Shown here: positions 15,945-55,494 of the stretch, in pieces | Layout: every line of letters begins with the position of its first letter | How positions within the stretch are numbered: position 1 is the first letter of the stretch | DNA from: Naegleria gruberi | Lineage: Eukaryota | Assembly: GCA_000004985.1 (NCBI GenBank) | Contig: GG738874.1 | Reading direction: 5' to 3' (one strand) | DNA: 64,000 nt | The notes under the pieces: generated by a model | The model's database searches: none | The model's input: the letters and a program-made list of their open reading frames with translations, nothing else | Told to the model about the DNA's origin: nothing | Made by a program: the position numbers and the translations under genes

Positions 15945-17267
15945 TTATTTCTTATTGGCATTCAATCTTTCAATAGCTTTTTCTCTAATCTTTTGTACAG
16001 GAAGAGGGAAATCTTCTTCAATTTGTTTGAGAGATTCTTTTGTTAACACGTACAAATCGCAATATGTACCAGCTCTTACTGAAGCCATTCTAGTTTGGTC
16101 CATAATCACACTGATTTCACCAAAGAATTTACCAGCATCCAATGTTGCTAATACTTTTGGTTCAGGATCTTCAGTAACAACTTGAACATAACCTTTCAAA
16201 ATAAAGTACATTTCTCTTCCAATTTCACCCTTCTTCACAATCTTAGTTCCTGGCAAAACGACTTGAGGTCTGAGAGCCATGACCATTGATGTAATAAATG
16301 TTTTGTTAGCACCTTCGACTTTAAACAAATCGACTTTCTCAATAAGTTCAGCATTCATTGAAAGATAAATTTCAGATTGTAAATACCAAGGAAGATCTTC
16401 TAATACAAGAGTTTCATCCCAACCAGATCTAGCTTTCCAAACGAAATGATAATATCTTTCAATTTTTCCTCTAATAGTTTCTGGAATCTTTCTATAGGTC
16501 ATGTACTGCTTGAGAGAGTCAAGCTTTTGCTTTCTCTTTGATTTTTCTTGATTGCTTGATTCTAAAATGTTACCCACGGCACCGACGACTAAAATCACTA
16601 GAGCTACACCTACAATATTACAAGCTTGAGAAAAGACACATTGACTAATTGTAACAGGAGATGAACCCCCATAACCTGTCATGGAAGTAAGGACCCACAT
16701 AAATCCTCTGATATATCTCGACATGGCACCAGGAATTGATTTATCTTGGATAATGGTCGATTTCTGTGTCCATACCTGAACTGTTTGAACTGGATCGGTC
16801 ATTACAATAATATACCAACCACAAGCTAAGCAGTGAGTTGCAATGAAGAAGTAAAACACGTATCTCAGAATTTGAATAGCAGTAATTGGAATAATTTCAA
16901 CTTCAGACTCAAACTGACTAAAGTACTGATTGATTCTGACAGCCCTAACACATCTAATCATTCTAATCCACATTCCCAATTTCAAATCAATTATCAATAA
17001 AACATAATCCAATGGTATCATGGATATTAAATCTGTGTAGAAGAAAAATGTTTTAACATATTTCTTTGAAATCATTTTGTAATCATAAATATATATACCA
17101 TCTGTTCCAGAAATTCTTTTAAAGAAACAGAGAATAAAGTCAAATAATAAAATAAGGTCAGCTGTCACATCAAATATTACCCAAATGCCTGACCATAATG
17201 GTTGATTCATGTATGTATACAAAGTAACTCTTAATGTTACTGTAAAGAAATTATAAAAAGTGGCCAA
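15945..17267 (-). CDS. cyclic-nucleotide-binding-domain K+ channel (S4-like segment, pore TSMTGYGG, C-linker + CNBD); N-terminal exon(s) probably upstream of 17267
   Basis: Arg-rich S4-like helix RMIRCVRAVRINQY. K+ selectivity signature LTSMTGYGGSSP. CNBD motifs FGEISVIMDQTRMASVRAGTYCDLYVLTKESL. The reading frame stays open upstream of the track start (the track's first residue is a TTG codon, no ATG), so a 5' exon is inferred. Confidence 0.65.
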   Translation of the reverse strand: MATFYNFFTVTLRVTLYTYMNQPLWSGIWVIFDVTADLILLFDFILCFFKRISGTDGIYIYDYKMISKKYVKTFFFYTDLISMIPLDYVLLIIDLKLGMWIRMIRCVRAVRINQYFSQFESEVEIIPITAIQILRYVFYFFIATHCLACGWYIIVMTDPVQTVQVWTQKSTIIQDKSIPGAMSRYIRGFMWVLTSMTGYGGSSPVTISQCVFSQACNIVGVALVILVVGAVGNILESSNQEKSKRKQKLDSLKQYMTYRKIPETIRGKIERYYHFVWKARSGWDETLVLEDLPWYLQSEIYLSMNAELIEKVDLFKVEGANKTFITSMVMALRPQVVLPGTKIVKKGEIGREMYFILKGYVQVVTEDPEPKVLATLDAGKFFGEISVIMDQTRMASVRAGTYCDLYVLTKESLKQIEEDFPLPVQKIREKAIERLNANKK

Positions 17268-17660
17268 GAAACAAAGGAATACCCAAAGTGTTGCTAATTT
17301 ATACCTCTCGGGTATTGTTAGTGGTTCTACTACTTGTGTTTTCCAATATCTAAATTGTTGTTTAAATTACTATTTGAAATTAAACCAACCTTTGAAATGT
17401 TTCCTTCCTTGATTCATGTTCTTCAACTTTAATTACTAATTGTTTATCCTTTCCGACTTCTTCCTATTATTATTGGTTTTTCATTAAGATGGATCTAAAT
17501 AGTGTGATCTTACCTCCTTCATCCACTTGGGTGGTTTTATTTCCTTCACCTTCTTCTTTGGTTTTTCAGGCTCTTTTGGTGGTTGTGTTGCAGCAGGAGG
17601 TGGTTGTGAACTCATTTTTCTTTATAAATTACTTTGTTGTTCAACTACAATGTTATCAAT

Positions 17661-17672
17661 TTTGGCGGGAAG
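17661..17672 (+). promoter_or_regulatory. E2F-like TTTGGCGGGAAG motif 12 bp upstream of the EF-hand gene ATG
   Basis: Matches the classical E2F site TTTGGCGGGAA. Confidence 0.35.
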
Positions 17673-17683
17673 AATTTAAAAAA

Positions 17684-18268
17684 ATGTCTCGACCAATTAT
17701 TACCACTTCTTCTTTTCCTCAGACAACAACAACAATACAGAGTCATAATATCAATGGAGGACGCATTGTCTCAATGACATCGGTGTTTGAAACACCTCTC
17801 ACCAATAGAATGAAAAGAGATATTGAAGAGATATTTGAATTGTATGATACCGATCGGAAGGGTTACCTAACTAAAATTGAATATAAATTAGCTTACATAT
17901 CACTCATGGGACATAAACCATCAAAGTTTGAAAGGAAGGAATTGTTTTCATCAAGTAGACCTGTAGTAAGGAGACAATTCTTCATGGAATTGATGAATAA
18001 GAAATTAATGAGATCTGATCAGCAAGATAGAATCAGAGAAATATTCAATACAATTGACAGTGAAAGGAAAGGCTTTATTACTCTTAAGGATTTAACTAGG
18101 AGTGTATCTGCAATTTTAAATTATGAAAAACAATTTGGAAAAGGAACAAATAGTTTATCAAGTTTAGGATTGGAATCTCTATTGACTGAATTTGATGTTG
18201 ATAGAGCAAATAGAATCAGTTATACTACATTTTGTTCATTAATTTTGAAAAATAATTTAACAGTGTAG
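17684..18268 (+). CDS. EF-hand calcium-binding protein
   Basis: ATG at 17684 (aaaaaaATG). Two clear EF-hand loops: YDTDRKGYLTKIEY and IDSERKGFITLKDL. The track ORF starts earlier at a non-ATG codon. Confidence 0.6.
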   Translation: MSRPIITTSSFPQTTTTIQSHNINGGRIVSMTSVFETPLTNRMKRDIEEIFELYDTDRKGYLTKIEYKLAYISLMGHKPSKFERKELFSSSRPVVRRQFFMELMNKKLMRSDQQDRIREIFNTIDSERKGFITLKDLTRSVSAILNYEKQFGKGTNSLSSLGLESLLTEFDVDRANRISYTTFCSLILKNNLTV

Positions 18269-18525
18269 TTTTCTTATCAAGTTGATCCTTTCATGGATTT
18301 TAGAGCTTGAAAATTGGTTCAGATCCAATACTCAATTGACTTGCTGTTTGCTTACCATCCTTTCAGAATATCATGCAACTTCATTGAGAATCACTATCCA
18401 GAATTGACTGAGTTATTGAGTAATAATCCTAGAGTCAAGTTTAAAAATAGATATTTCTATAATTGGAATAACAATTTTAAAATTGAAAATAAAATTAAAA
18501 CAATATTTTTAACATCAAGACAAGA

Positions 18526-18597
18526 AGCAAATTGGCGCAGTGGAAGCGCGATGGGCTCATAACCCATAGGTCCTAGGATCGAAACCTAGATTTGCTA
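18526..18597 (+). tRNA. initiator tRNA-Met (anticodon CAT)
   Basis: AGCAAAT acceptor stem pairing with ATTTGCT (A1:U72, the eukaryotic initiator hallmark). D-arm GCGC/AGTGGAA/GCGC. Anticodon arm ATGGG-CTCATAA-CCCAT with three G:C pairs. T-arm CTAGG-ATCGAAA-CCTAG (A54/A60 initiator T-loop, AUCGAAA). Discriminator A. Confidence 0.85.
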
Positions 18598-18698
18598 AAC
18601 CTTTTGGTTTTTTAAGTTTTTTTATGATTTGAATATATTTTGAGATAATAGGAAGTGATAATGAGTTCATATCAACTGGTTTCAATTTACTAAATCAA

Positions 18699-19259
18699 CT
18701 ATTTTCTTGGAACAATAATCAATTCATCAAATCCAGTTTCAGGATCAACTTGTCTTTCAAAATATACATCAGTCAACTCATTCAATACAATCTCAGCAGT
18801 TGTATAAACATTTGCTGTAATCAAATGACCTCCAAAAGTCTGTCCAGTTTTTCCATCAGAAATTGAAATGTGAATATGAGGAATAATATCTGAATAATCC
18901 TTGGTTGTTTCATTGTAATTTGCACTGATCGTTCCAACGAGAGAAACAATTTCATACGTTCCAGAATCAAATGTCGTATAGTGATGATTATTTGCTAGCC
19001 TGAGAACAGCTTTTGTGACTGATCCGACAACTGCTTGAATACTCACTGCTCTCAATTTATTAATCCTTGCAAAATCAATGAGTGTACTCATTATTTCTTG
19101 TGTTGGTTTTAATCTCATTGGATAGCCAATCATTCTTGATGGAAAAGCTTGTGGAATTACATTCTTATTATTGGATGAAGCAGAGGAAGATTCACTTGAT
19201 CCGATTATCATCATCATGACCAACAATAGCACAACAACAACATACTTTGAATGGTTCAT
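18699..19259 (-). CDS. secreted PPC/DUF296-domain protein
   Basis: 186-aa ORF with an N-terminal signal peptide (YVVVVLLLVMMMIIGSSES), then a domain resembling the plant/prokaryote PPC (DUF296) fold (RAVSIQAVVGSVTKAVLR..., YEIVSLVGTIS..., ISISDGKTGQTFGGHL). Identification is by recollection of family consensus. Confidence 0.45.
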   Translation of the reverse strand: MNHSKYVVVVLLLVMMMIIGSSESSSASSNNKNVIPQAFPSRMIGYPMRLKPTQEIMSTLIDFARINKLRAVSIQAVVGSVTKAVLRLANNHHYTTFDSGTYEIVSLVGTISANYNETTKDYSDIIPHIHISISDGKTGQTFGGHLITANVYTTAEIVLNELTDVYFERQVDPETGFDELIIVPRK

Positions 19260-19270
19260 TTTTATAAAAT

Positions 19271-20255
19271 TTAAATTTTATCCAAACAAGTTCTGCTTTC
19301 ATTAAATGTAAAGTCAACCAATGATATTAATACAATTACAAATATTTCATCTCGTATTTTTGTTGCATCTTCTCCAAATAATTTCAATTTCAAAGAATCA
19401 ACCTCTTTGGTATTTGTGTTGAGTTTGTTATAAGAAGAGGTTAGTAATGATGCATTCGAGTTCACTTTCAAATTCCAAGAAGCAAATCCATCTCGAATTG
19501 ATTATTAAGAAAATGATATAAAATTGAATTAACTTACTTTCATCCTCTCTGGAATCAAATGAAAAGTTATTTGATCCAATGTTAAATTTACCATCACGTG
19601 TATAAAATCTTGGATAGGCATCCTCGTCTTCTTGAACATCCCAAGTAGAATATTCAACTTTTTGATAAACATGTTTGGAAATTAATTCACAAACTTCCTC
19701 TCCACATTCGAATAAAAAGTATTCATTCAATAAACGTTTCCATAATGATCTAATACCATCAGTTTTGGTAATTGCACTAGTTTTCAGTTCAACTACTCTT
19801 TTTGAGTTCTTAATATTACCTTCTACCTTTTTGGTCAACCATTTCTCAAATTTATATTCTTCAACCTCATTATCTTTTAGTTTATCAGCATCATAACTTG
19901 TACCAAGATCAAATGCCTTTGTAATTTGAGTGATCAAATCACCTTTCTTTTTTTTTACTTTGTTATTGGAGGAGTATTCATCAAATTTTCTCTTATTTAC
20001 TTTTAACTCTTTTTCATTTGGTTTTTGAAAGGCTTGTTGTTTCTTGAGAGCTTTCATTCTTGTACAATTAATATTTCCTAATTTTCTAATATCGGAAGAT
20101 ACTCTCAAGGAAATGACCAATGGATTTGATTCAAGTAATTCTTCCCTAATCACTTTACAACATGATGAAAAATTAATGACATCCCTATTTGATGAAGACA
20201 TAAAAAACACAATCTGATCCAAGACTTCGCTAGGAATATTTTCAAATTGATTCAT
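19271..20255 (-). CDS. hypothetical protein with F-box-like N-terminus; two exons (19538..20255 and 19271..19491; 46-nt intron GTAAGT..AG)
   Basis: ATG at 20253-20255. N-terminal IPSEVLDQIVFFMSS is F-box-like. ORF 19428..20255 runs into a GTAAGT donor after ...SFDSREDE. The acceptor cgag|ATGGATTTG restores frame into track ORF 19271..19471. No recognisable catalytic domain. Confidence 0.4.
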
Positions 20256-20412: not shown

Positions 20413-22062
20413 ATGCAAGATGTCAATTCTCCAACTTTAAAAAAAAACATCAACAACACAATAGCAATTCTAATGTCAAAACAACAACAACAACAACAAC
20501 AACATGACAATACTTTAACTACTGCCACTAATCATCAAATTCAACAAAATGTTAATAATTTACCAATGGAAATATTGAGTGAAATTCAAAGTTATATTCA
20601 TGATGAATGGTTAAATTTTAGACTTGTTTGTAAATATTGGTCAATTATATTTTGTGAATATTTAAATATTAAATTAAATATTAAAGATTGTAATAATATT
20701 ATAGATTTATGTAATAGTAATATTTTATTACAAACTAATGAACTTTGTATTAATAATGTTCCAAAAAAAGTAATAGAAGCTATTTATTCTAATAATCAAT
20801 TATTTAAAAATATTAAAAAATTAACTTTTTATGGAAATATTAATTTAAATAGTATTGAAAAATTATTTTTAAAATCAAATTCATTTATTTATAATTTAAA
20901 TAGTTTATATATACAATCAAATGATATTACTAAATTAATGAAAATTTATAAAAAAGGAATACAAATAGCAAATAAAAATAAAAATAAAAAAAGTATTGGA
21001 TTATTTAATTATTTAATTTATTTAAATAATAATATAAATTATGAATATTTAAATAAATCATTAGAAGTAAATAATATTGAAGCAATTGAATATATGATAA
21101 AAAATTCTGAAAATAACTTTGAATGGTTATTAAAAGGTTCTAAATTAGGAAATTTAAAAATACAACTTGATTTGGCGTTTTATTATTATAATACTAGTCA
21201 ACATTTACTTGCTTTGGAATTATTTGAAAAAATATTTTATAATTTAAAATATGTTGAAAAAAATAATAATGAAATTAATTTTGATTTTTCATTCTATTTA
21301 GGTGAATATTACTATTATGGAAATTATGGAATTGAAAAAGATTATAAAAAATCAAATTACTATTTTTTACATGGTGATATTAATGATCCAATAACTCAAG
21401 AATTTATTGCAGAGAGTTATACCTATTTACAAGATTATAAAAATTCCTTTAAATGGCATTTAAAATCATCTGAAAATGAAAGTGAACATTCATCATTTAC
21501 AATTTCATATTTATATTGTAGTGGAATTGTTACATGTCCTAATATGGAAGAGTCTATTAAACATTTGATTAAATCACCTAATTACTCAGTCACCATACTT
21601 CAATTTTTAAATTATTTTAAATTATTAAATCATTTAGAAAATTTAGATGAAATTTTACAAATTATTAATAATGTAAATTTGAATAATGATGAAATTTCAT
21701 ATGACAATGATGAAGAATATGAAAACAATTTAAAATTTGATTTAAATGAAAATTCAAATGAAAATGAAATTCTGGAAATGGTAAAATCGAATGGATGGTC
21801 ATGTAATTCATGCAACAAATCATTTAATGGATTTTATTATTCAACAATGAATGGTTTTACATTTGATTTATGTATGGATTGTTATTCAATGGAAATTATA
21901 GAAAAATTTAAACATGAGTTAAATAATAGAATTTTATTTAAAACACATATTTTAACAAATTATATTCCACTTTTGGAATATTGTAAAAAATGTAATAATA
22001 TTAATAATTTAAAACTTGATAATATTATTAATCAATTAAAAGAATGTAAATCAATTCATTAA
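20413..22062 (+). CDS. F-box-like / Sel1-repeat protein with conserved C-terminal Cys-rich module
   Basis: First ATG at 20413 (track start 20329 is TTG). poly-Q, then F-box-like NLPMEILSEIQSYIHDEW. Sel1-like repeats (YYYGNYGIEKDYKKSNYYF...). C-terminal CNSCNKSFNGFYYSTMNGFTFDLCMDCY...RILFKTHILTNYIPLLEYCKKC shared with the gene at 53800..55494. Confidence 0.6.
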   Translation: MQDVNSPTLKKNINNTIAILMSKQQQQQQQHDNTLTTATNHQIQQNVNNLPMEILSEIQSYIHDEWLNFRLVCKYWSIIFCEYLNIKLNIKDCNNIIDLCNSNILLQTNELCINNVPKKVIEAIYSNNQLFKNIKKLTFYGNINLNSIEKLFLKSNSFIYNLNSLYIQSNDITKLMKIYKKGIQIANKNKNKKSIGLFNYLIYLNNNINYEYLNKSLEVNNIEAIEYMIKNSENNFEWLLKGSKLGNLKIQLDLAFYYYNTSQHLLALELFEKIFYNLKYVEKNNNEINFDFSFYLGEYYYYGNYGIEKDYKKSNYYFLHGDINDPITQEFIAESYTYLQDYKNSFKWHLKSSENESEHSSFTISYLYCSGIVTCPNMEESIKHLIKSPNYSVTILQFLNYFKLLNHLENLDEILQIINNVNLNNDEISYDNDEEYENNLKFDLNENSNENEILEMVKSNGWSCNSCNKSFNGFYYSTMNGFTFDLCMDCYSMEIIEKFKHELNNRILFKTHILTNYIPLLEYCKKCNNINNLKLDNIINQLKECKSIH

Positions 22063-26213: not shown

Positions 26214-27512
26214 ATGGCTAGAAAGAATAAGAACAAATCAAAGGCAACAAACAACAACCAAAAGGAAGAAGAAAATACTCAAGATGAAACAACTGTAGAG
26301 GAAACAACATCGGAGGAACAAACTGAAACAACTTCTACACAAGAAAATACTGTCGAAGAAGAAAATAAGGAAGTTACATCATCTGAGGAATCTAAGCCAA
26401 CTAATGAAGAAACAAAGCCTGAAGTTGTTGAAGAACCAAAGACTGAAGAAACCACTCCAGTCGTCGTAGAGGAAACAGCCACTCCAGTCGTTGAATCTGC
26501 TCCAGAGGAAACAAAGACTGAAGTTGTCGAAGAACCAAAAGTTGAAGAAACAAAGACTGAAGAACCAACTCCAGTCGTCGAAGAACCAAAGGTTGAAGAA
26601 CCAACACCTGTTGTTGAAGAAAAGATTGAAGAACCAACTCCAGTAGTTGTTGAAGAAACTGTTAAGGTTGAAGAAACACCAGTCGTAGTTGAAGAACCTG
26701 TTAAAGTTGAAGAAACCAAGATTGAGGAACCAACAACTGTAGTTGAAGAACCTAAGGTTGAGGAACCAGTTGCTGTTGTTGAAGAACAGAAGATCGAGGA
26801 ACCAACACCTGTTGTTGAAGAAACTAAAATTGAGGAACCAAAAATTGAAGAACAAACTCCAGTTGTTGAAGAAAAGATTGAGGAACCAACTCCAGTTGTA
26901 GAAGAACCAGTTAAAGTTGAAGAACCAGTTAAGGTCGAAGAACCAACACCTGTTGTTGAAGAAAAGATTGAAGAACCAACACCAGTAGTTGTTGAAGAAA
27001 CTAAAATTGAGGAACCAAAAATTGAAGAACAAACACCTATTGTTGAAACACCAAAAGTCGAAGAAACTAAGGTCGAAGAACAAAAAGTCGAAGAAACAAT
27101 TGTGGAACCTAAGATTGAAGAACCTGTTGTTGCTGAAAAGATTGAAGAGCCAGTTAAAGTTGAAGAAGTCAAGGTCGAAGAACCAGTTAAAGTTGAAGAA
27201 CCAGTTAAGGTTGAAGAATCAAAACCAGTAGTTGAAGATGTTAAGGTTGTTGAAGAATCAGTTAAGGTTGAAGAACCAAAGACTGAACCAACCCCTGTCG
27301 TTGAAACACCAAAGGTCGAAGAACAAAAAGTCGAAGAACCAAAGACTGAATCAGTTAAAGTCGAAGAACCAGCTAAGGTCGAAGAACAACCAAAGACTGA
27401 AGCAACAGTGACGGAAACAACACCAGAAGTTAAACCAGTTTTGAATGAGACTAAGGAATCTAAGGAATCTAAGGAAACATCGGAAAAGAAGAAGAAGTGT
27501 ACGATCATGTAA
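26214..27512 (+). CDS. Glu/Pro/Val/Lys-rich tandem-repeat (PEVK-like) protein ending in a CaaX prenylation box (CTIM)
   Basis: 432-aa ORF. N-terminus is MARKNKNKSKA. The body is degenerate (K/T/V)(I/V)EE(P/Q)TPVVEE units with long internal direct repeats (e.g. 26575-26660 nearly identical to 26935-27000 and 26818-26900). The C-terminus SEKKKKCTIM* is polybasic plus C-a-a-X. Confidence 0.6.
   Translation: MARKNKNKSKATNNNQKEEENTQDETTVEETTSEEQTETTSTQENTVEEENKEVTSSEESKPTNEETKPEVVEEPKTEETTPVVVEETATPVVESAPEETKTEVVEEPKVEETKTEEPTPVVEEPKVEEPTPVVEEKIEEPTPVVVEETVKVEETPVVVEEPVKVEETKIEEPTTVVEEPKVEEPVAVVEEQKIEEPTPVVEETKIEEPKIEEQTPVVEEKIEEPTPVVEEPVKVEEPVKVEEPTPVVEEKIEEPTPVVVEETKIEEPKIEEQTPIVETPKVEETKVEEQKVEETIVEPKIEEPVVAEKIEEPVKVEEVKVEEPVKVEEPVKVEESKPVVEDVKVVEESVKVEEPKTEPTPVVETPKVEEQKVEEPKTESVKVEEPAKVEEQPKTEATVTETTPEVKPVLNETKESKESKETSEKKKKCTIM
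26560..27060 (+). repeat. in-frame tandem/direct DNA repeats encoding EEPTPVVEE-type units
   Basis: Near-identical blocks gaagaaccaacacctgttgttgaagaaaagattgaagaaccaac... recur at about 26575, 26818 and 26935. Confidence 0.6.
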
Positions 27513-31600: not shown

Positions 31601-32485
31601 ATGAAAAAACTAAGCTTAAAGTCAATGAAACGAAACCAAGAAGAGGTTTTTGGTGAAAATAAGGAAGATGAAGAGGTAGCCTTTATAAATCGGAAAATGA
31701 TCAGTAGGCATAGTAGTAATTTACATCATCACCATCACAATCATCATCGAAGCAAGAAAGAGCCACCACATAAGATAAATACCACAACAAATACAACAGT
31801 AACAGAAATAGATGACAATGAGGAGGGAGTTTCTTCAATTGGTGAATCACCAAGAGGAAGAAATACTCTGCAGCACAATGAAATGTCCTCCTCACACTAC
31901 TCTAAAACCATATTTCCAAAGAGTTTACTTGATTCCTATGTTAAGGCAAGGCAGGTTAAAAAACAACAGCGAGAAGCGATCATACGAGCACAAACACCAA
32001 ATCATGAAGCTGTTCAAAGGGAGAAGAGGTATGAAAGATATAAAAAAGAGAAGAAAGCAGGAGGAAATTATATTGCATCTGGTGATTTTAAACCAACAGA
32101 TGTTTTACCATTCGATGATTTGAAACGGATAGTGGTTAAAAATCAAGAAATATTCAAAGAAACCACAGAGAGGGTACTCACACCCCAACCAACCTTAACC
32201 AGTGTAAATTCCAATAGATCCCTACTCAGTGTAAAATCAGATTCATTTAGAAGAAGTAGAACACCATCTCCTTCACTACATTCATCACAATCTGTAAAAT
32301 ACTTTAGAGACCAACCTTCAAGGTCTGATTCACGAATGAGTTTGGCTGATGTTGCTACTGTTTTTGAAAATTATTTATCGAGGACTTCATCATTTAGTAC
32401 AGTAAGCAGTTCAAGTTCGAATAGTAACAGCCCAACAGGTTTAAAGAAAGGTGCATCATTTTCGAGAAGAATTGTCAATCAATGA
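31601..32485 (+). CDS. Ser-rich hypothetical protein with poly-His stretch
   Basis: 294-aa ORF; ATG at 31601. HHHHHNHHRSKKEPPHK. The S/T-rich C-terminal half resembles phospho-regulated linker regions. No recognisable domain. Confidence 0.35.
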   Translation: MKKLSLKSMKRNQEEVFGENKEDEEVAFINRKMISRHSSNLHHHHHNHHRSKKEPPHKINTTTNTTVTEIDDNEEGVSSIGESPRGRNTLQHNEMSSSHYSKTIFPKSLLDSYVKARQVKKQQREAIIRAQTPNHEAVQREKRYERYKKEKKAGGNYIASGDFKPTDVLPFDDLKRIVVKNQEIFKETTERVLTPQPTLTSVNSNRSLLSVKSDSFRRSRTPSPSLHSSQSVKYFRDQPSRSDSRMSLADVATVFENYLSRTSSFSTVSSSSSNSNSPTGLKKGASFSRRIVNQ

Positions 32486-32731
32486 CAATTCTAATAAAAT
32501 TGAATTTAATTTTTCTACATCATTGCTAAATATTTGTATTGAGGTTGTATTATATAAGGATAAGGGTTGAACAAGAGTTGTTGCTTGTCTCTTTCAAGAA
32601 TGGTCGTAGTTTATCCGTTGAGGGTTCTAAAACTTCATCGAATGGAGTTGGTTACTTTTTAAATTTCCCTCCAATTTTCAAACCCGTAACGGATGGAGAT
32701 TTGTAAAATCAAAAAAAAATAAAGCTATTGA

Positions 32732-35700
32732 ATGGAGGAAACACAACAAACACCTCAGCCAGAAGAAGAATCACGAACACAATCATCAAATATTGAGGAA
32801 GAAATTTCAACATCAGTCAATGAAGTTGTAAATTCTCAACCATCTGATGAGGCCTCAACAGCACTTCAACAAACTGAAGAACATCAAGATATTTCCAGTA
32901 AGGAACAACATGATGATGTTGATCACCAAGAAAACAACAATGAGAAGCCTCAAGAAAATGATACCTTAGTAGTTGAAGAAAATCCAGAAAATCATATGGA
33001 AGAAGAATACACCAGTGTTGGTCATTCTGTCAAAACAACCAATGATGAGAAGGAGGCTATTAGTGAAGAGATTTTAGAAACAACAAATAACGAGTTAATA
33101 TCTATTTCCCAAGCCTTGAATTACACTGCCGAAGGATTACATGAAAGTCATGAATACATTAACACTCTTACAGAACAAATTGAGGCAAAGAATAATGAAA
33201 TCCAGAAAGTAATGGAGGTATTAGAGGAACACAAATCAATTATTACTCAAAAGGATGACGAAATCTCAACAATTACTCAAGAATCCGAAAATACTAAAAA
33301 GTTATTGGGGCAGACAACATCTCAGATGAATACAATTTCCGAGAATTTGGCCAATGCTTTGGAGGAACTTTTAGAATCAGATCTCAAGTTGAAGGGGATT
33401 ACTAAGGAACTAACAGTCTCAAAGGAAGAAATTGAAAATTTGTCCAAAAGCATTTCAGAGAAAGAATCATTGATCGAAGAGCTCAACAATAATCTTGGTT
33501 CAGCAAAGGCAGAATTGGAAGCATCTAAGGAAGATGTTTCTTTAAAGAGTGCTATTATTGAACAATTAACTAGTGAGATTAATGTTGGAAAGGAAGCAAT
33601 TCAAAAATTAGAAGACAATGTCAATGAAAAGAGTCAAGAGGTTGATTCTTTAAGGTTGATTATTGAAGAAAAAGCTTCACTTAATGAACTATTGAAACAA
33701 CAAGTCGATGAAACAAAACAATCTCTTGAAGAAACTTTGAATAATTTAACAAAAGCAAAGGAAGAAATAGAAAGCGTAGAAAATTCTCTTAAGGAAACAA
33801 CTCAAAAGTTAGAAGAAACAAATACGCAACTCACATCATTGTCAAGCCAAGTTGAGCAAGACAAAGATGAGTTAAAACAGATTAGTGAAGAGCTTGAAAC
33901 TGTGAAAGAAAACTGTAGTCAAAAATCAGCTGAACTGGAGAAGACCATTTCAGAACTGAAAGAAACATCTGACAATTTGGAGGATCAAAAGAAAGTGCTT
34001 GAAGAAAAAACTCAAGAATTAACTTCCACAACAGAAGAGCTCTCTAAAACGAAATCATTATTGGAAAGCACTACCACTGAATTCAACGAAAAATTAAAAA
34101 TTGCTTCCGATAGTTTGCAAATAACTACCCAAGAACTCGAAGAAACCAAAGGAAAATTAGAACAAACCCAACAACAATTGGATAAAATGAGCTCTGAATT
34201 GGAAATTAAGACACAGGATCTTTCTCAGGCAATTGAAACTTTAGATCTCACAAATATCGAATTAAGTGAACTCAAAGAAACCATGTCAAATACTACCATT
34301 GAACTTGATAAAACGAAGGAGATTTTAAAGTCCACAAACGAAGAACTTTTGGCAACAAAAGAATCCCTTGAAACAACCAGTGAAGAATTGTCTACAACTA
34401 AAGACACGCTTGCAACAACAACCGAGGAGTTTTCTTTTACAATGGAACAATTAGATAATACTAAAAAAGAACTCTCTGAAACAACCACCAAATTAGAGGA
34501 AACATCTGCTGAATTGGTTTCTATTAAGGAGGATCTTTCCGACACAAGACAAAAGCTTGAATCTACTTGCGGTTTATTGTCTGAAACTCAAACCAAATTA
34601 GAAGAATCTAACAAAAATCTTGAAGATGCAAACTGTACAATCAAAACTACTGAAGATGAATTATCTAGTGTTAAGGGTGAACTTGAATCCACAGCAAAAA
34701 ATCTGGTTGACACCAAGCAAGAGCTTTCAGAAACTATTTCTGACTTGCAACAGACAAAAGAGAGTTTGTCAGAAACTAAGGAAACACTTGCAAGCACTGA
34801 GGATAACCTGCACAAAATAGAGGACGAGTTATCTCAATCAAGAACAACTTTATCAGAGACATCAGAAGAACTTATTGAGACAAAAAATAGGTTGACTGCC
34901 ACCTTGGATGAGCTTTCCACTACCAAAGAAGACCTTAGAAACACAGAAAAAGATCTTTCCCAAAGAACAAGCGATTTGGGAATGACTTCAATGGAATTAA
35001 TAAGCACAAAGGAAGAGCTTACAGAAACAAAACAAACACTCTCTCAAACTTCTGAAAATTTAGAAACTACAAAAACAACATTGGAAGAAACATCTTCCGA
35101 TCTTGAGAAAACAAAAGAAGAACTTGCAAAGAAAACTGAAAATCTGGAAGACACTACCAAAAATCTAGAGAGTACAAAAAGAACATTGGAGGAAACTTGC
35201 AAAGAACTTGAAGCAACAAACAACACACTTCTTAGTACTAGTGAAGAGCTAACTACAACAAAGACTGACCTCGAAAACACAAGGCAAACCCTAGTTGAGA
35301 CATGCTCTAACTTGGAAAACACTAAAGCAAAACTTCAAGATACTGAAATTACACTCACCGAAACAATCAATGTTCTTAATTCAACAAAGCAAGAGTTAGA
35401 TAGTACAAACGAAGAACTCTCAAATACCAAGAATTCTTTGAAAGCCACTGAGCTTGAATTGAGTGATACAAAGGAAAATCTTTCTAAAACTGGTGAAGAA
35501 CTTGTTCAAACTAAATTAACTCTTTCCTCAACTTCTGATGAATTAAGCAACACGAAACAAGCTTTATCTGCAACTACGGAAGATCTCAACAGTACAAGAG
35601 ACGTTCTGAAAAGTACTGAGAATGAGCTTTCTCAAAGAACAAGCGATTTGGGAATGACATCTATGGAATTAATAAGCACAAAGGAAGAGCTTACAGAGAC

Positions 35701-38170
35701 AAAACAAACACTCTCTCAAACCCGCGATACATTAAGATCCACTCAACAGTATTTAGAAGATACTAACACTTCACTGAACTCTGCAAATGAAACCATACGA
35801 ATTACAACAAAAGAACTTGAGAAAACTCAATCCGAACTCGATTTGACAAAGAAAAATCTTGACGTCACAACAACAGAATTACAAGACACAAAGGAGGCAT
35901 TTACCACAACCAAGTCAGATTTAGAGTCAAAACTTTCAGAAACCACTAACCAATTGAATAATACAACTGCCACTCTGAACGAAACTCAAACAACTCTTAC
36001 TCTAACTCAACAAACTCTTTCGTCAATCGAATCAGATTTAAATGGTACTAGAGAAACCCTAAACAAAACAAAGAATAATTTAGATGGCATGACTGACTCT
36101 TACGAATCAACTTTATCTGCTCTCAATCATACAAAACAAGTCTTACAAGAAACTGAAGAAAAGCTATCCGAAACTTGTAAAACTCTTGATGAACGAGTAT
36201 ATGAATTGAGTACTACTTCACAGATTCTTAAAAATACAAGAGACCTTCTTCAAAACACTGAAGAAAAGTTGAAGAGTAAAACTGAGGAATGGGAACTTTT
36301 GTTGGTGGTAAGATCTGAATTGGAGAAGGAACTTGAAGAAATGACCAACAAAAACACCAAAAATGAAGAAGAAATCAAAGAGTTACTCCACATCAAATCT
36401 GATCTCACTGCTGAACGAAATAAGTTGATTGAGAATCTCAACCAAACTACCTCTAATCTGAAGCAAACAGAACACACTCTTGAAGAAACAACTCAAAAAC
36501 TTAACATCACTGAAAATGTTCTTCAAGAAACCTCTATCACCCTTAAAGCAACAACAGAGGATCTGAATTGTAAAAATGAAAGATTGGAGCAAGCAGAAAA
36601 TTCTTTGGAGAGTTTGAGACAAAAATATGACACCTCTGTTAAAGAGTTGAAGGCAGCTCACATTACCATAGATCAAGCAAATGTTTTGGTATTGGAACAA
36701 CAAGAATCCCTCGCAGAAAGGCAGAGAAGCATTGATAAACTTGAGAATACAGTTGTTGAGCTTAATAAGATCATTAGTGAAAGGGATGAAACCATAAAAC
36801 AAAGAGATTCAACAATTAAGAGCCTTGAACAAGTCGTTGCAGAAAAAATAGGAATAATCAACGATAGAGATCAAGAAATAAGTGAAAGAATCGACAACCA
36901 CAACCAATTGTTCGCCGAGAAAACTAATCTTGATAGTGAAATAGCAAACTTGAAGTCTGAATATCAAAAACTGGATGAAATTTGTAATTTTAAGAAAGAA
37001 CAGCTTATCAAATCCCAAGTTATCATTACTAGTTGGATTGAAGAGAATAATGTCAAAGCCAAAACTATCGCACAACTTTACGAAATAGTCAATAAGAAGG
37101 ATTCAGAGATTGAAAATCTTTTCACTTCGGGCAATAAGATCATGGAAGGACTTAGTCTAGAAATTAAACAACTTGAAATCAAATTACAAGAAGCAAACAC
37201 TAATATACAATCATTAACTGATAAGGATAATGAAAATATGGATCAAATTCGTCAACTTTGGGAAAAGATTAAAGACAGAGACAATATAATCGAGGAGCAA
37301 ACAAGAGAAAGCATTAGAGTTGAGGAAGAAAAGAGATCCTCAGATGGTAAATTCAGAAAAGAGATTGAAAGACTCACAATGGTTGAAATGGATCTTGAAT
37401 ATGCTGTAAAGGAACGTGAAGATTCTTTGTTTGATATCAAGAAAGAAAATGAAAATCTTACACAACAACACATTGCCATCGATTTAGAAAACAAACAACT
37501 CAAACAACAATTCCAAATCAAACAAAAGAAAATTGAAGAGCTTAACCTTAAATTGGTTATGGAACAAAAAAGAAATGAAAGAAATGAGAAGGCCAAGTCA
37601 AGCTTTGTTAGAAATATAAGAGATAGAACTCTTGGTGCAACAACAGATGTAGATCAAAAGAATTTGTTGGTCATTCAAGATCTTGGAAAGAAGTATGACG
37701 ACCTCGCTCAAAAATATGAATTGCTTGTTACTGAAAGAAATGATTTAAAGAAATTGTGTAAATCTTTACAATATGCACTTGACAAGAAAGATGGTGAAGA
37801 TGGCAAGAGAATTCAAACATTAGAAAGCAAGTTGCAACAAGAACAAACAGAAAAGAATATCTTCAGAAACGAAAAGAAGGAAATTGAAAAAAAGATGGAA
37901 ACCATTTCAACAGAAAATAAGCAACTCAATTTGAACATGAATAGACTTCACAATACCACCACTCAAATGTTGAGAAAACAAGAAAAGATTACAACTTATT
38001 TGGACAACAATAACGAAGTAGTTTCTTCGTTTGCACTTTCACCAAGAGTTAAACCAACAACAAATATTCCATCAAATGTAGGAGCCAATTCTTTAGTTAG
38101 TCCAAGAAACTTAACTGGTGTCTCTAAACCATCAACACCAAGAATTGCTTCAACCAGATCAACCAAATAA
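32732..38170 (+). CDS. giant (1812 aa) coiled-coil protein with degenerate (T/S)xEEL(S/T)xTKxxL repeats and an S/T/P-rich C-terminal tail
   Basis: Intronless 5.4-kb ORF. Acidic N-terminus. About 1000 aa of 14-residue-type periodic repeats (TSEELSTTKDTLATTTEE..., TKQELSETISDLQQTKESL...). An internal near-identical duplication (LSQRTSDLGMTSMELISTKEELTETKQTLSQT at about 34960 and 35630). The tail PRVKPTTNIPSNVGANSLVSPRNLTGVSKPSTPRIASTRSTK. Confidence 0.6.
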   Translation: MEETQQTPQPEEESRTQSSNIEEEISTSVNEVVNSQPSDEASTALQQTEEHQDISSKEQHDDVDHQENNNEKPQENDTLVVEENPENHMEEEYTSVGHSVKTTNDEKEAISEEILETTNNELISISQALNYTAEGLHESHEYINTLTEQIEAKNNEIQKVMEVLEEHKSIITQKDDEISTITQESENTKKLLGQTTSQMNTISENLANALEELLESDLKLKGITKELTVSKEEIENLSKSISEKESLIEELNNNLGSAKAELEASKEDVSLKSAIIEQLTSEINVGKEAIQKLEDNVNEKSQEVDSLRLIIEEKASLNELLKQQVDETKQSLEETLNNLTKAKEEIESVENSLKETTQKLEETNTQLTSLSSQVEQDKDELKQISEELETVKENCSQKSAELEKTISELKETSDNLEDQKKVLEEKTQELTSTTEELSKTKSLLESTTTEFNEKLKIASDSLQITTQELEETKGKLEQTQQQLDKMSSELEIKTQDLSQAIETLDLTNIELSELKETMSNTTIELDKTKEILKSTNEELLATKESLETTSEELSTTKDTLATTTEEFSFTMEQLDNTKKELSETTTKLEETSAELVSIKEDLSDTRQKLESTCGLLSETQTKLEESNKNLEDANCTIKTTEDELSSVKGELESTAKNLVDTKQELSETISDLQQTKESLSETKETLASTEDNLHKIEDELSQSRTTLSETSEELIETKNRLTATLDELSTTKEDLRNTEKDLSQRTSDLGMTSMELISTKEELTETKQTLSQTSENLETTKTTLEETSSDLEKTKEELAKKTENLEDTTKNLESTKRTLEETCKELEATNNTLLSTSEELTTTKTDLENTRQTLVETCSNLENTKAKLQDTEITLTETINVLNSTKQELDSTNEELSNTKNSLKATELELSDTKENLSKTGEELVQTKLTLSSTSDELSNTKQALSATTEDLNSTRDVLKSTENELSQRTSDLGMTSMELISTKEELTETKQTLSQTRDTLRSTQQYLEDTNTSLNSANETIRITTKELEKTQSELDLTKKNLDVTTTELQDTKEAFTTTKSDLESKLSETTNQLNNTTATLNETQTTLTLTQQTLSSIESDLNGTRETLNKTKNNLDGMTDSYESTLSALNHTKQVLQETEEKLSETCKTLDERVYELSTTSQILKNTRDLLQNTEEKLKSKTEEWELLLVVRSELEKELEEMTNKNTKNEEEIKELLHIKSDLTAERNKLIENLNQTTSNLKQTEHTLEETTQKLNITENVLQETSITLKATTEDLNCKNERLEQAENSLESLRQKYDTSVKELKAAHITIDQANVLVLEQQESLAERQRSIDKLENTVVELNKIISERDETIKQRDSTIKSLEQVVAEKIGIINDRDQEISERIDNHNQLFAEKTNLDSEIANLKSEYQKLDEICNFKKEQLIKSQVIITSWIEENNVKAKTIAQLYEIVNKKDSEIENLFTSGNKIMEGLSLEIKQLEIKLQEANTNIQSLTDKDNENMDQIRQLWEKIKDRDNIIEEQTRESIRVEEEKRSSDGKFRKEIERLTMVEMDLEYAVKEREDSLFDIKKENENLTQQHIAIDLENKQLKQQFQIKQKKIEELNLKLVMEQKRNERNEKAKSSFVRNIRDRTLGATTDVDQKNLLVIQDLGKKYDDLAQKYELLVTERNDLKKLCKSLQYALDKKDGEDGKRIQTLESKLQQEQTEKNIFRNEKKEIEKKMETISTENKQLNLNMNRLHNTTTQMLRKQEKITTYLDNNNEVVSSFALSPRVKPTTNIPSNVGANSLVSPRNLTGVSKPSTPRIASTRSTK

Positions 38171-53173: not shown

Positions 53174-53635
53174 ATGCAATTATTTGTCAAGACACTCACT
53201 GGAAAAACAATCACTTTGGAAGTTGAATCAAATGATTCAATTGAAAATGTCAAGTCAAAGATTCAAGAAAAGGAAGGAATTTCACCAGATCAACAAAGAC
53301 TCATCTTTGGTGGAAAACAATTGGAAGATGGAAGAACTATTAATGATTACAACATTCAAAAAGATTCAACTCTTCATTTGGTGTTGAGATTAAGAGGAGG
53401 AATGCAACTCTTTGTAAAAACCTTAACTGGAAAAACAATTACTATTGAAATGGAAGCGAATGATACTATTGAGAATATGAAACAAAAGATATTTGATAAG
53501 GAAGGCATTCCTTCAGATCAACAACGATTGATTTATGCAGGAAAACAATTAGAAGATGGAAGAACAATTAGTGATTACAACCTTCAAAAGGATTCTACTG
53601 TGCATTTGGTGTTGAGATTGAGAGGAGGTGGTTAA
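53174..53635 (+). CDS. divergent tandem di-ubiquitin-like protein (two 76-aa ubiquitin-fold repeats, about 85% and 82% identical to ubiquitin, ending GGG)
   Basis: [76 protein letters not shown] plus a second, more divergent repeat. K48/K63/G76 are retained, but there are 11 and 14 substitutions relative to canonical ubiquitin. Confidence 0.75.
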
Positions 53636-53799: not shown

Positions 53800-55494
53800 A
53801 TGACACAACAGCCACCTCACATTCCACCAGAAATTCTTTCTCTCATAAAAAGTTATTTTTGTCATGGACGTGAATGGGAATTTTTAATGACAAGTTTTAG
53901 ATTTGTTTGCAATGATTGGTATCAAGTTTATTGTCATGATAAGGTGAATCGTATTCGCATAGAATTAACTTCAAATTCTATCACTACATTGGGGAGATCT
54001 AATATTGAAAAATTATGTATGGAGGGCAATAGTTGTTTATTAGGAGTTGATAAAATACAATTTTGCAATGTTGGTACACAAGAATTGCAAGCTATATTGA
54101 ATTGTAATAATTTTACGAATTTAGAGCATTTATTTATTTCTGGGCATTTTGATGTAAAAGTTTTTGAAGAAATTGTAACGAGCGAACCTAATTTATTTAT
54201 TTATAATTTAAAATATTTCTATATATATCATTTGACACCTAACATAGAGGAAATGGTTAGAGTTTTTCAAAAATGTGTTTCAATATCTAATCATCCTTCC
54301 TTTTATTATTTAATATTTATATTAAATACTAATATTATATATTTAAAAAGAGCTGTCGAATTAAATTATTTACCAGCCATTACGAGAATGAAAGAATTAA
54401 CAACGAATGAAAATGAAAAAGTGGAATTGATGATTAAAGGAGCTCAATTGGGTGATTATACTATGCAATTTGATTTGGCTAATTATTATAAAACTAGTGA
54501 ACAACATTCGGAGGCAATACAATGGTTTTTGAAAGCACTAGCTCACAATAACAAAAAAGAAAATCTCACTATTTATAATTATTTAGGAAACTGTTATTTG
54601 GAAGGATCTGGTCTTGAAAAAGATATTAAAAAGGCCCAATATTGGTTTGAAAAAAGTGCACTGAAAGGAAATGCATATGGTCAATTCGGTGTTGCATCCT
54701 GTCATGATGAAAATCATTCTTATACCAAAGCATTTGAATGGTATAAAAAAGCAGCAGACCATGGGGACTCTAATGCTTTATTCAATGTTGCTTATTGTTA
54801 TGAATGGGGTGAGGGTGTTGAAAAGGATCTCTCCAAATCATTTGAATGGTTCCTAAAGTCTGCTGAAAAAGGAGATGCTGAAGCTCAGTATCGTATTGGT
54901 ATGCGTTATACAATGGGAAAAGGAGTTGAAAGAGATTTATATAAGGCATTCAATTGGTATTATAAATCCTCCAAAAACGGATATATAAATTCCATGTTTC
55001 AACTTGGATATATGTATGCTAGTGGTAAAGGAACATCGTTTGATGGAGCTAAATCATTGAAATGGCTAAGTAGGGCAAGTGAAGGTTACGAACATGCTAA
55101 AACAGTTATTGGATTTTTAAATCATTTTGGATTGAATTCAATGAGCAAGGAACTCAATTATGCTGATCAAATGAATATTTCAGAATCAATTAAGAAGAAT
55201 ACAATTGAATCTCTTCGCAAGTGTGGTGCTTGTGATAATATTTGCAAGGGATTTTTCAAATCAACTTTAGATGGCGGATTATCTTTTAATGTTTGTAATG
55301 ATTGTTTAAAATGTATGGATTTGGAACAGATCAAGGAAAAATTTAAATCTGAAATTGGAGACAGAATACTGTATCACACTCATTACCTTGCAAATTTCCT
55401 TCCTCTCATCATTTATTGTAGAGATGAGAATAAGGTTGTTAATTCAAACCTGGAGAGTTTTATTACACAACTGGAAGATTGTGCCAAAGAATAA
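53800..55494 (+). CDS. F-box-like / Sel1-repeat protein with conserved C-terminal Cys-rich module (paralog of 20413..22062)
   Basis: ATG at 53800 (track start 53788 is TTG). HIPPEILSLIKSYF F-box-like region. About 7 Sel1-like repeats (AQYWFEKSALKGNAYGQFGVASCH, AFEWYKKAADHGDSNALFNVAYCYEWGEGV, ...). C-terminal CGACDNICKGFFKSTLDGGLSFNVCNDCLKCMDLEQIKEKFKSEIGDRILYHTHYLANFLPLIIYC. Confidence 0.6.
   Translation: MTQQPPHIPPEILSLIKSYFCHGREWEFLMTSFRFVCNDWYQVYCHDKVNRIRIELTSNSITTLGRSNIEKLCMEGNSCLLGVDKIQFCNVGTQELQAILNCNNFTNLEHLFISGHFDVKVFEEIVTSEPNLFIYNLKYFYIYHLTPNIEEMVRVFQKCVSISNHPSFYYLIFILNTNIIYLKRAVELNYLPAITRMKELTTNENEKVELMIKGAQLGDYTMQFDLANYYKTSEQHSEAIQWFLKALAHNNKKENLTIYNYLGNCYLEGSGLEKDIKKAQYWFEKSALKGNAYGQFGVASCHDENHSYTKAFEWYKKAADHGDSNALFNVAYCYEWGEGVEKDLSKSFEWFLKSAEKGDAEAQYRIGMRYTMGKGVERDLYKAFNWYYKSSKNGYINSMFQLGYMYASGKGTSFDGAKSLKWLSRASEGYEHAKTVIGFLNHFGLNSMSKELNYADQMNISESIKKNTIESLRKCGACDNICKGFFKSTLDGGLSFNVCNDCLKCMDLEQIKEKFKSEIGDRILYHTHYLANFLPLIIYCRDENKVVNSNLESFITQLEDCAKE

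What the first reader, a model, noticed from the sequence alone, without database searches (positions are those of the whole stretch)
20413..22062. Two-member family: F-box-like N-terminus + Sel1 repeats + a conserved, apparently undescribed C-terminal Cys-rich module
The gene at 20413..22062 and the one at 53800..55494 (33 kb apart) share the same architecture. At the C-terminus they share a collinear block: C-x2-C...F-x-(L/V)C-x-DC...E-KFK-x-E...RIL(F/Y)-(K/H)-TH-x-L-x-N-(Y/F)-(I/L)-PL-(L/I)-x-YC. This looks like a small zinc-ribbon-like domain that I cannot place in any family I know. A third F-box-like gene (19271..20255) sits immediately upstream of the first, in divergent orientation. 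Sel1 repeats plus an F-box suggests substrate adaptors for SCF ubiquitin ligases, and the Cys module may be a novel substrate- or ligand-binding domain.
Basis: seen in the sequence. Interest (0 to 1): 0.6.

Follow-up and report, generated by a model that had tools for sequence, protein, structure and literature searches.

The report
Naegleria F-box/Sel1 proteins with degenerate ZZ finger
Two genes in this Naegleria gruberi window belong to a small family found only in that species, and the first third of their "unknown" cysteine-rich tail is a degenerate ZZ-type zinc finger followed by a family-specific helical tail, so this is a modest variant of a known domain and not a new one.

Summary
The ORFs at 20413..22062 and 53800..55494 are collinear paralogues (28% identity, E 6e-49), and their C-terminal block matches at E ~3e-18. 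The window is Naegleria gruberi. An exhaustive profile search of 1.84 billion proteins found only three carriers of the block, all from N. gruberi. Gene 1 is absent from public protein sets, so the family has at least four members, not two.

The "undescribed" reading is only partly right. The first ~36 residues of the block are a divergent ZZ zinc finger:
- Pfam PF00569 scores 26.1 bits on protein 1 (cut-off 21.4).
- An independent ZZ HMM ranks protein 1 and paralogue P0003 first and second of 498 sequences.
- The family-versus-ZZ profile comparison gives P 3.9e-4, and 0 of 300 column shuffles reach that score.
- The spacing between ligand pairs 1 and 3 is the ZZ spacing.

The second ZZ zinc site is lost. 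The remaining ~55 residues (FK-E-IG-R...TH-L-N-F-PL...YC...C) match nothing known. The F-box-like call holds in two of the three members that have an N-terminus. The most likely function is SCF substrate receptor, which is inferred and not shown. Structure prediction failed. Interest is low to moderate: a new variant of a known kind.

The parts
20413..22062 (+). Gene 1 (protein 1, 549 aa): F-box-like, then a conserved ~150-aa linker, eroded Sel1 repeats, a ZZ-like finger and a family-specific tail. The gene is 18% GC and the protein is not in public protein sets.
   Evidence: ORF; composition and open-frame probability; absent from the collection.
20554..20652 (+). F-box-like motif of protein 1 (aa 48-80: LPMEILSEIQSYIHDEWLNFRLVCKYWS)
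   Evidence: Pfam PF12937 scores 22.8 bits on the full protein and 27.7 bits on the N-terminus alone (cut-off 24.3).
21787..21891 (+). ZZ-like zinc finger of protein 1 (aa 459-493). Ligand pair 1 is C464/C467 and pair 3 is C487/C490. The pair 2 positions hold T478 and G481.
   Evidence: Pfam PF00569 26.1 bits; own ZZ HMM 22.1 bits, the top hit of 498 sequences; 0 of 2000 shuffles reach the real score.
21892..22059 (+). Family-specific C-terminal extension of protein 1 (aa 494-549), with invariant F499 K500 E502 R506 T511 H512 L514 P519 L520 C524 N532 I539 L542 C545
   Evidence: Alignments; no Pfam or PDB match.
53800..55494 (+). Gene 2 (protein 2, 564 aa). The public model NAEGRDRAFT_49810 / D2VIG3 covers only aa 197-564.
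53818..53940 (+). Weak F-box-like motif of protein 2 (aa 7-47), homologous to those of protein 1 and P0002
   Evidence: Pfam PF12937 14.7 bits, below cut-off; family alignment with invariant P, E, I, L, S-Y, E-W, R-V-C, W.
54439..55095 (+). Sel1 repeat region of protein 2 (approximately aa 214-432, five repeats)
   Evidence: Pfam PF08238 E 2.9e-42, 142 bits, 5 stretches. The boundaries are approximate.
55213..55317 (+). ZZ-like finger of protein 2 (approximately aa 472-506). Pair 1 is C475/C478, there is an extra C482, and pair 3 is C499/C502.
   Evidence: Homology to the protein 1 module. It is not detectable as ZZ on its own.
55318..55491 (+). Family-specific C-terminal extension of protein 2 (aa 507-564)
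19428..20255 (-). Divergently transcribed neighbour (275 aa) with a borderline F-box at its N-terminus; otherwise unrelated to the family
   Evidence: Pfam PF00646 17.4 bits against a 20.5 cut-off; no similarity to proteins 1 or 2 by tblastn.

Best explanation
The two genes belong to a family of at least four paralogues found only in Naegleria gruberi. Each protein has an N-terminal F-box-like motif, a conserved ~150-aa linker, a variable number of Sel1 (TPR-like) repeats and a conserved ~95-aa C-terminal block. The first ~36 residues of that block are a divergent ZZ-type zinc finger. It keeps ligand pairs 1 and 3 (one Cys4 site, with the canonical 19-20-residue spacing) and has lost the central Cys pair and the canonical His pair of the second site. 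It probably binds one zinc where a ZZ domain binds two. The last ~55 residues are a family-specific, predicted helical tail with one invariant His and two invariant Cys. The likely function, by inference only, is as substrate receptors of SCF ubiquitin ligases: the F-box docks on Skp1, and the Sel1 solenoid with the ZZ-derived module forms the substrate-binding surface. Shown here: paralogy, domain matches, ligand pattern and taxonomic restriction. Inferred: zinc stoichiometry, Skp1 binding and substrate recognition.
For: Paralogy. Organism and family size. ZZ evidence: Pfam PF00569 at 26.1 bits, E 7.4e-6, on the protein 1 module. A ZZ HMM built from ten reference ZZ domains (each verified as ZZ by Pfam) ranks protein 1 (22.1 bits) and P0003 (13.1 bits) first and second of 498 sequences, with the next best at 5.3 bits. 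None of 2000 residue shuffles reaches the real score for either. hhalign of family against ZZ gives score 24.7, P 3.9e-4 over 33 columns, and 0 of 300 column shuffles reach it (maximum 18.65). Pair 1 to pair 3 spacing is 19-20 aa, against 18-20 in canonical ZZ. KCMF1, S. pombe Nbr1 and dystrophin ZZ domains are the best relevant PDB matches. F-box-like is above the Pfam cut-off in protein 1 (27.7 bits) and P0002 (27.5-29.8 bits), and FBXO42 and TIR1 F-boxes are among the four (non-significant) PDB hits to the N-terminal profile. Sel1. The ZZ ligand pattern CCCCCCHH and the binuclear cross-brace are described in PMC4506424.
Against: Protein 2 and P0002 show no ZZ signal on their own. hhalign probability is only 35%. 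The family profile finds no significant PDB ZZ; dystrophin scores E 1.4. No usable structure model was obtained (pLDDT 42.7 and 53.7), so the fold and the metal-site geometry are untested. ZZ accounts for only about a third of the conserved block. The F-box-like match is below cut-off in protein 2, and P0003's model has no F-box. No evidence bears on Skp1 binding or substrates.
Confidence: 0.6

Rival explanations
1. The Cys block is an independent small zinc ribbon or treble clef that is not derived from ZZ. Its resemblance to ZZ would come from convergence on two C-x2-C knuckles and a hydrophobic-D-hydrophobic-C motif.
For: Two of four members score at background against ZZ. hhalign probability is 35%. 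There is no significant PDB hit with the family profile. Six of the eight canonical ligands are not all present.
Against: Protein 1 passes Pfam's curated ZZ threshold. Two members hit independently at the homologous position. Shuffle controls exclude a composition effect. The inter-knuckle spacing matches ZZ, and non-ligand positions also match: G-F-(Y/R)-Y before pair 2 and (F/Y)-D-(L/I/V)-C at pair 3. Dystrophin-type ZZ domains also lack the central Cys pair and still score 70-75 bits.
Confidence: 0.2
2. Gene 1 (20413..22062) is a decaying, non-functional paralogue rather than a working gene.
For: Its GC content is 18% against ~31% for the window. It has N/Q/K-rich low-complexity inserts. 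Its Sel1 repeats are nearly erased (14.8 bits). It is absent from public protein sets.
Against: The 549-codon frame is open, where chance gives ~1e-27. It retains every residue that is invariant across the four modules. It has the best ZZ score of the family and an F-box-like score above cut-off.
Confidence: 0.12
3. The proteins are Sel1 scaffolds that do not work through SCF. On this view the F-box-like motif is a degenerate helical cap with no Skp1 binding.
For: The Pfam match covers only positions 2-35 of 47. It is below cut-off in protein 2, and P0003 has none in its model. The N-terminal profile gives no significant PDB F-box hit (E 0.44).
Against: Two members pass the curated cut-off. 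The L-P-x-E-I-L and V-C-x-x-W signature residues are invariant in three members. P0003's model may be truncated, as the public model of gene 2 is.
Confidence: 0.25

Closest known systems
ZZ-type zinc finger (Pfam PF00569), e.g. KCMF1, p62/SQSTM1, CBP/p300, HERC2
   Same: An N-terminal C-x2-C knuckle, 19-20 residues, then (F/Y)-(D/N)-(L/I/V)-C-x2-C. An aromatic pair lies ahead of ligand pair 2. The domain sits in proteins of the ubiquitin system. The protein 1 match is above the Pfam threshold.
   Different: Ligand pair 2 (C-x2-C) is replaced by Thr and Gly/Asp/Arg. The His pair is absent at its canonical place. A ~15-residue conserved insertion (FK-E-IG-R) and a ~40-residue helical tail with invariant H, C, C follow. 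Of the acidic residues that p62-type ZZ domains use to bind N-terminal Arg (recalled from memory, not tested), only the one equivalent to D149 is mostly kept.
Dystrophin / utrophin-type ZZ domains
   Same: They also lack the central Cys pair (R-Y-R-S-L-K-H) and carry an extra Cys shortly after the first knuckle. G-F-x-Y-x-(S/T)-(L/M) and (Y/F)-D-(I/L)-C align without gaps to protein 1. Dystrophin is the only ZZ found by the family profile in the PDB.
   Different: Dystrophin ZZ keeps the His pair and is reported to have two zinc-binding regions (PMC4540588). It sits after WW and EF-hand domains and binds beta-dystroglycan. The match is not significant (E 0.4-1.4).
F-box proteins with repeat-type substrate-binding domains (FBXL, FBXW, Kelch-type FBXO such as FBXO42; TIR1)
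   Same: An N-terminal F-box-like motif is followed by a repeat solenoid presumed to bind substrate.
   Different: The solenoid here is Sel1/TPR-like and ends in a ZZ-derived module. I found no described F-box/Sel1/ZZ architecture in the literature searches I ran, and those searches were not exhaustive.

Membership tests
ZZ zinc finger (PF00569) | Sequence match to the Pfam model above the gathering score (21.4 bits) | tested here: inconclusive
   Met by protein 1 (22.3 bits full length, 26.1 bits for the module). Not met by protein 2 (no hit), P0002 (no hit) or P0003 (11 bits, E 0.4). At family level hhalign gives P 3.9e-4 at 35% probability, above all 300 column shuffles.
ZZ zinc finger (PF00569) | Eight zinc ligands in the pattern CCCCCCHH forming two cross-braced sites (PMC4506424) | tested here: not met
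   Pairs 1 and 3 are invariant Cys (C464/C467, C487/C490). Pair 2 is T plus G/D/R. There is no His pair within ~12 residues of pair 3, and a single invariant His lies 25-29 residues downstream. Dystrophin-type members of PF00569 also lack the Cys of pair 2, so this does not exclude descent from ZZ.
ZZ zinc finger (PF00569) | Spacing of 18-20 residues between ligand pairs 1 and 3, and a (Y/F)-D-(L/I/V/F)-C-x2-C motif | tested here: met
   The spacing is 19, 20, 20 and 20 residues. The motifs are FDLC, FNVC, FDIC and FDVC.
ZZ zinc finger (PF00569) | RING-like treble-clef fold | tested here: inconclusive
F-box / F-box-like (PF00646 / PF12937) | Match above the Pfam gathering score (24.3 bits for PF12937) | tested here: met
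   Protein 1 N-terminus 27.7 bits and P0002 27.5-29.8 bits. Protein 2 reaches only 14.7 bits but is homologous in alignment.
F-box / F-box-like (PF00646 / PF12937) | Binding to Skp1 | not testable with these tools
Sel1 repeat (PF08238) | Match above the gathering score (30.7 bits) with multiple repeats | tested here: met
   Protein 2 142 bits (5 repeats), P0002 44.9 bits (2 repeats), P0003 225.6 bits (8 repeats). Protein 1 reaches only 14.8 bits, so its repeats are eroded.

The most novel reading that the evidence does not exclude
The ~55-residue extension is more than a tail. Its invariant His512, Cys524 and Cys545 would rebuild a second metal site in place of the lost ZZ site 2. The fourth ligand would vary: the extra Cys after the first knuckle in three members, or Cys527 of the C-K-K-C in protein 1. 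That would make a re-wired binuclear ZZ derivative unique to N. gruberi, used by an SCF-type ligase as a new substrate-reading or terminus-reading module.
Probability: 0.2. Interest if true: 0.4.

Novelty: new variant of a known kind. Interest (0 to 1): 0.25.

Why it matters
If correct, this shows how a ZZ finger can lose one metal site and gain a lineage-specific extension inside an F-box/Sel1 architecture that appears not to have been described. It adds a small species-restricted set of candidate ubiquitin-ligase adaptors to the Naegleria gene inventory. It also corrects two annotations: gene 1 is missing from public protein sets, and the public model of gene 2 lacks its first 196 codons, including the F-box-like motif. 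It does not open a major question. Species-specific gene families are very common in Heterolobosea (PMC12482156).

Tried and rejected
1. Word-index homologue searches. The 102-aa module found nothing, not even the identical N. gruberi protein. The query without Sel1 repeats found only that protein. The full-length family alignment was swamped by generic Sel1 proteins and did not return the family at all.

3. Family profile against the PDB. The top hit was Mycoplasma RbfA at E 0.011. I rejected it because it is the only RbfA entry among the six matches listed, its alignment runs across the C-x2-C knuckle without matching its Cys residues, and I suspected similar lysine/asparagine/isoleucine-rich composition (not measured). 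CDNF/ARMET hits at E ~1 were also rejected.

4. The genomic loci of P0002 and P0003 are not on record. I therefore could not check whether P0003 has an unannotated F-box exon.

5. Viral and metagenome DNA scans with the module's two most conserved peptides found no relatives.

6. A C-terminal CaaX prenylation motif around the invariant last Cys was considered and rejected. The Cys lies at -3 to -7 from the end in the four members, and where it is at -4 (protein 2, CAKE) the motif is not CaaX-like.

7. No Pfam match to B-box, MYND, RING or other zinc-ribbon families reached E < 0.05.

Full report
**What is there.** The window is AT-rich eukaryotic DNA (GC 0.21-0.35). The ORF at 53800..55494 is 100% identical over 368 aa to a Naegleria gruberi NEG-M predicted protein (NAEGRDRAFT_49810, D2VIG3), which identifies the organism. 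They align end to end at 28% identity, E 6e-49. Taken separately, the N-terminal ~200 aa match at E ~1e-14 and the C-terminal 105 aa at E ~3e-18 (40% identity). The window holds no third copy. Both frames are far longer than chance allows in this composition (P ~1e-27 and ~4e-23).

**Family size and distribution.** I searched a profile of the two modules exhaustively with HMMER against 1.84 billion representative proteins. Only three proteins had E <= 0.001, all from N. gruberi NEG-M and on three different scaffolds:
- P0001 is protein 2.
- P0002 (D2V8K2, 458 aa) has the same F-box-like start, two Sel1 repeats and the module.
- P0003 (D2VZ22, 497 aa) has eight Sel1 repeats and the module but no F-box in its model.

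Protein 1 was not among the hits, and no Met-start version of it is in the 15-billion-protein collection. It therefore appears unannotated, or modelled without the module. The family has at least four members. Scans of viral and metagenome DNA with the module's most conserved peptides found no relatives. As far as these collections show, the module is confined to one species. I could not verify how completely other Naegleria proteomes are represented in them.

**The Cys-rich block.** The four-member alignment has these invariant residues in protein 1 numbering: C464, C467, G473, F474, T478, F484, C487, C490, F499, K500, E502, R506, T511, H512, L514, P519, L520, C524, N532, I539, L542, C545.

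Evidence that the first part is a divergent ZZ finger:
- Pfam places ZZ (PF00569) on aa 459-493 of protein 1. The score is 22.3 bits in the full protein and 26.1 bits (E 7.4e-6) on the module alone, against a 21.4 cut-off.
- PDB phmmer hits, though weak, are ZZ domains of KCMF1, S. pombe Nbr1 and dystrophin.
- I built an independent ZZ HMM from ten reference ZZ domains. I wrote these from memory, and Pfam verified each as ZZ at 30-75 bits. Against all 496 ORF fragments of the window plus P0002 and P0003, protein 1 (22.1 bits, E 3e-6) and P0003 (13.1 bits, E 0.002) ranked first and second at the homologous position. The next best scored 5.3 bits.
- None of 2000 residue shuffles reached the real score for either protein. 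Protein 2 and P0002 scored at background.
- hhalign of the family profile against the ZZ profile aligns 33 columns (score 24.7, P 3.9e-4, probability 35%). None of 300 column-shuffled family alignments reached that score; the maximum was 18.65.
- The spacing between the first C-x2-C and the (F)-(D/N)-(L/I/V)-C-x2-C is 19-20 residues, as in canonical ZZ domains (18-20).

These results together make descent from ZZ the best reading for the first ~36 residues.

**How it differs from ZZ.** The canonical ZZ ligand pattern is CCCCCCHH, forming two cross-braced zinc sites (PMC4506424). Here ligand pairs 1 and 3 (one Cys4 site) are invariant. Pair 2 is replaced by Thr and Gly/Asp/Arg, and no His pair follows pair 3 at the usual distance. 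The only invariant His lies 25-29 residues downstream. With permissive settings, hhalign opens a 15-residue insertion (FK-E-IG-R...) and puts T-H-x-L on the ZZ His region, but at negligible posterior confidence. Dystrophin and utrophin ZZ domains also lack the Cys of pair 2 and still score 70-75 bits. An incomplete ligand set therefore does not exclude descent from ZZ, but I do not file the module as a canonical ZZ. The remaining ~55 residues have no Pfam or PDB match. They include an invariant (Y/F)-C and an amphipathic C-terminal helix with an invariant Cys. AF2 predicts helices there at pLDDT 70-80, while the finger itself is below 50.

**The rest of the protein.** F-box-like (PF12937) is above the cut-off in protein 1 (27.7 bits on the N-terminus) and in P0002 (27.5-29.8 bits). 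It is weak in protein 2 (14.7 bits). In three members the residues L/I-P-x-E-I-L, S-Y, E-W, R-x-V-C and W are invariant. FBXO42 and TIR1 F-boxes are among the four weak, non-significant PDB matches to the N-terminal profile. Between the F-box and the Sel1 repeats lies a ~150-aa region that is 34-40% identical among three members and has no Pfam match. A low-confidence AF2 model shows alternating strand and helix there, which suggests an LRR-like structure; this is inference only. Sel1 repeats are strong in protein 2, P0002 and P0003 and eroded in protein 1.

**Mechanism.** The most likely function is as a substrate receptor of an SCF ubiquitin ligase. The F-box would bind Skp1, and the Sel1 solenoid capped by the ZZ-derived module would bind substrate. 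ZZ domains elsewhere are protein-interaction modules and are frequent in ubiquitin-system proteins (PMC4506424). This step is inferred from domain content and nothing here tests it. Rivals:
- The finger is convergent and not ZZ-derived (0.2).
- Gene 1 is a decaying copy (0.12). Its open frame and its retention of every invariant residue argue against this.
- The proteins are scaffolds that do not use SCF (0.25).

**Novelty and verdict.** What remains unusual is a probably mononuclear ZZ derivative with a species-specific ~55-aa extension, in an F-box/Sel1 architecture that I did not find described. Species-specific families are very common in Heterolobosea. I rate it a new variant of a known kind, with interest 0.25. 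The most novel reading still open is that H512, C524 and C545 rebuild a second metal site. I give that a probability of about 0.2; it needs a structure or a metal analysis.

Noticed in passing
window 53174..53635 (+): A tandem di-ubiquitin ORF (two ubiquitin domains, Pfam 199.7 bits, ending RLRGGG) ends 165 bp upstream of F-box gene 2 on the same strand. Its repeats are only 86% and 82% identical to canonical ubiquitin (sequence recalled from memory) and differ from each other. That is unusually divergent for ubiquitin.
   Followed up: partly
window 20413..22062: Gene 1 is 18% GC, against ~31% for the window and for its paralogue. It has poly-Q and N/K-rich inserts and nearly erased Sel1 repeats, yet its frame is intact. 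It is absent from public protein collections under any Met start.
   Followed up: yes
window 53800..54390: The public gene model for gene 2 (NAEGRDRAFT_49810, 368 aa) starts at Met197 of the ORF. The 196 upstream codons are open and homologous to the N-termini of protein 1 and P0002, so the model appears truncated and loses the F-box-like motif.
   Followed up: yes
window 19428..20255 (-): The divergent neighbour of gene 1 has a borderline F-box at its N-terminus (17.4 bits against a 20.5 cut-off) and no other similarity to the family. Its exact sequence is not in the public collection.
   Followed up: partly
window 26214..27512 (+) and 26279..27508 (-): Two long ORFs (432 and 409 aa) overlap almost fully on opposite strands, which suggests a repetitive or compositionally biased stretch.
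   Followed up: no
window 32732..38170 (+): An 1812-aa ORF lies in a strongly A-rich stretch (AT skew 0.28 over 32001-36000). It was not examined.
   Followed up: no
window 15945..19259: The neighbours upstream of gene 1 are ordinary, unrelated genes: a cyclic-nucleotide-binding ion-channel fragment, an EF-hand protein, and a PCC-domain protein with a hydrophobic N-terminal stretch.
   Followed up: partly
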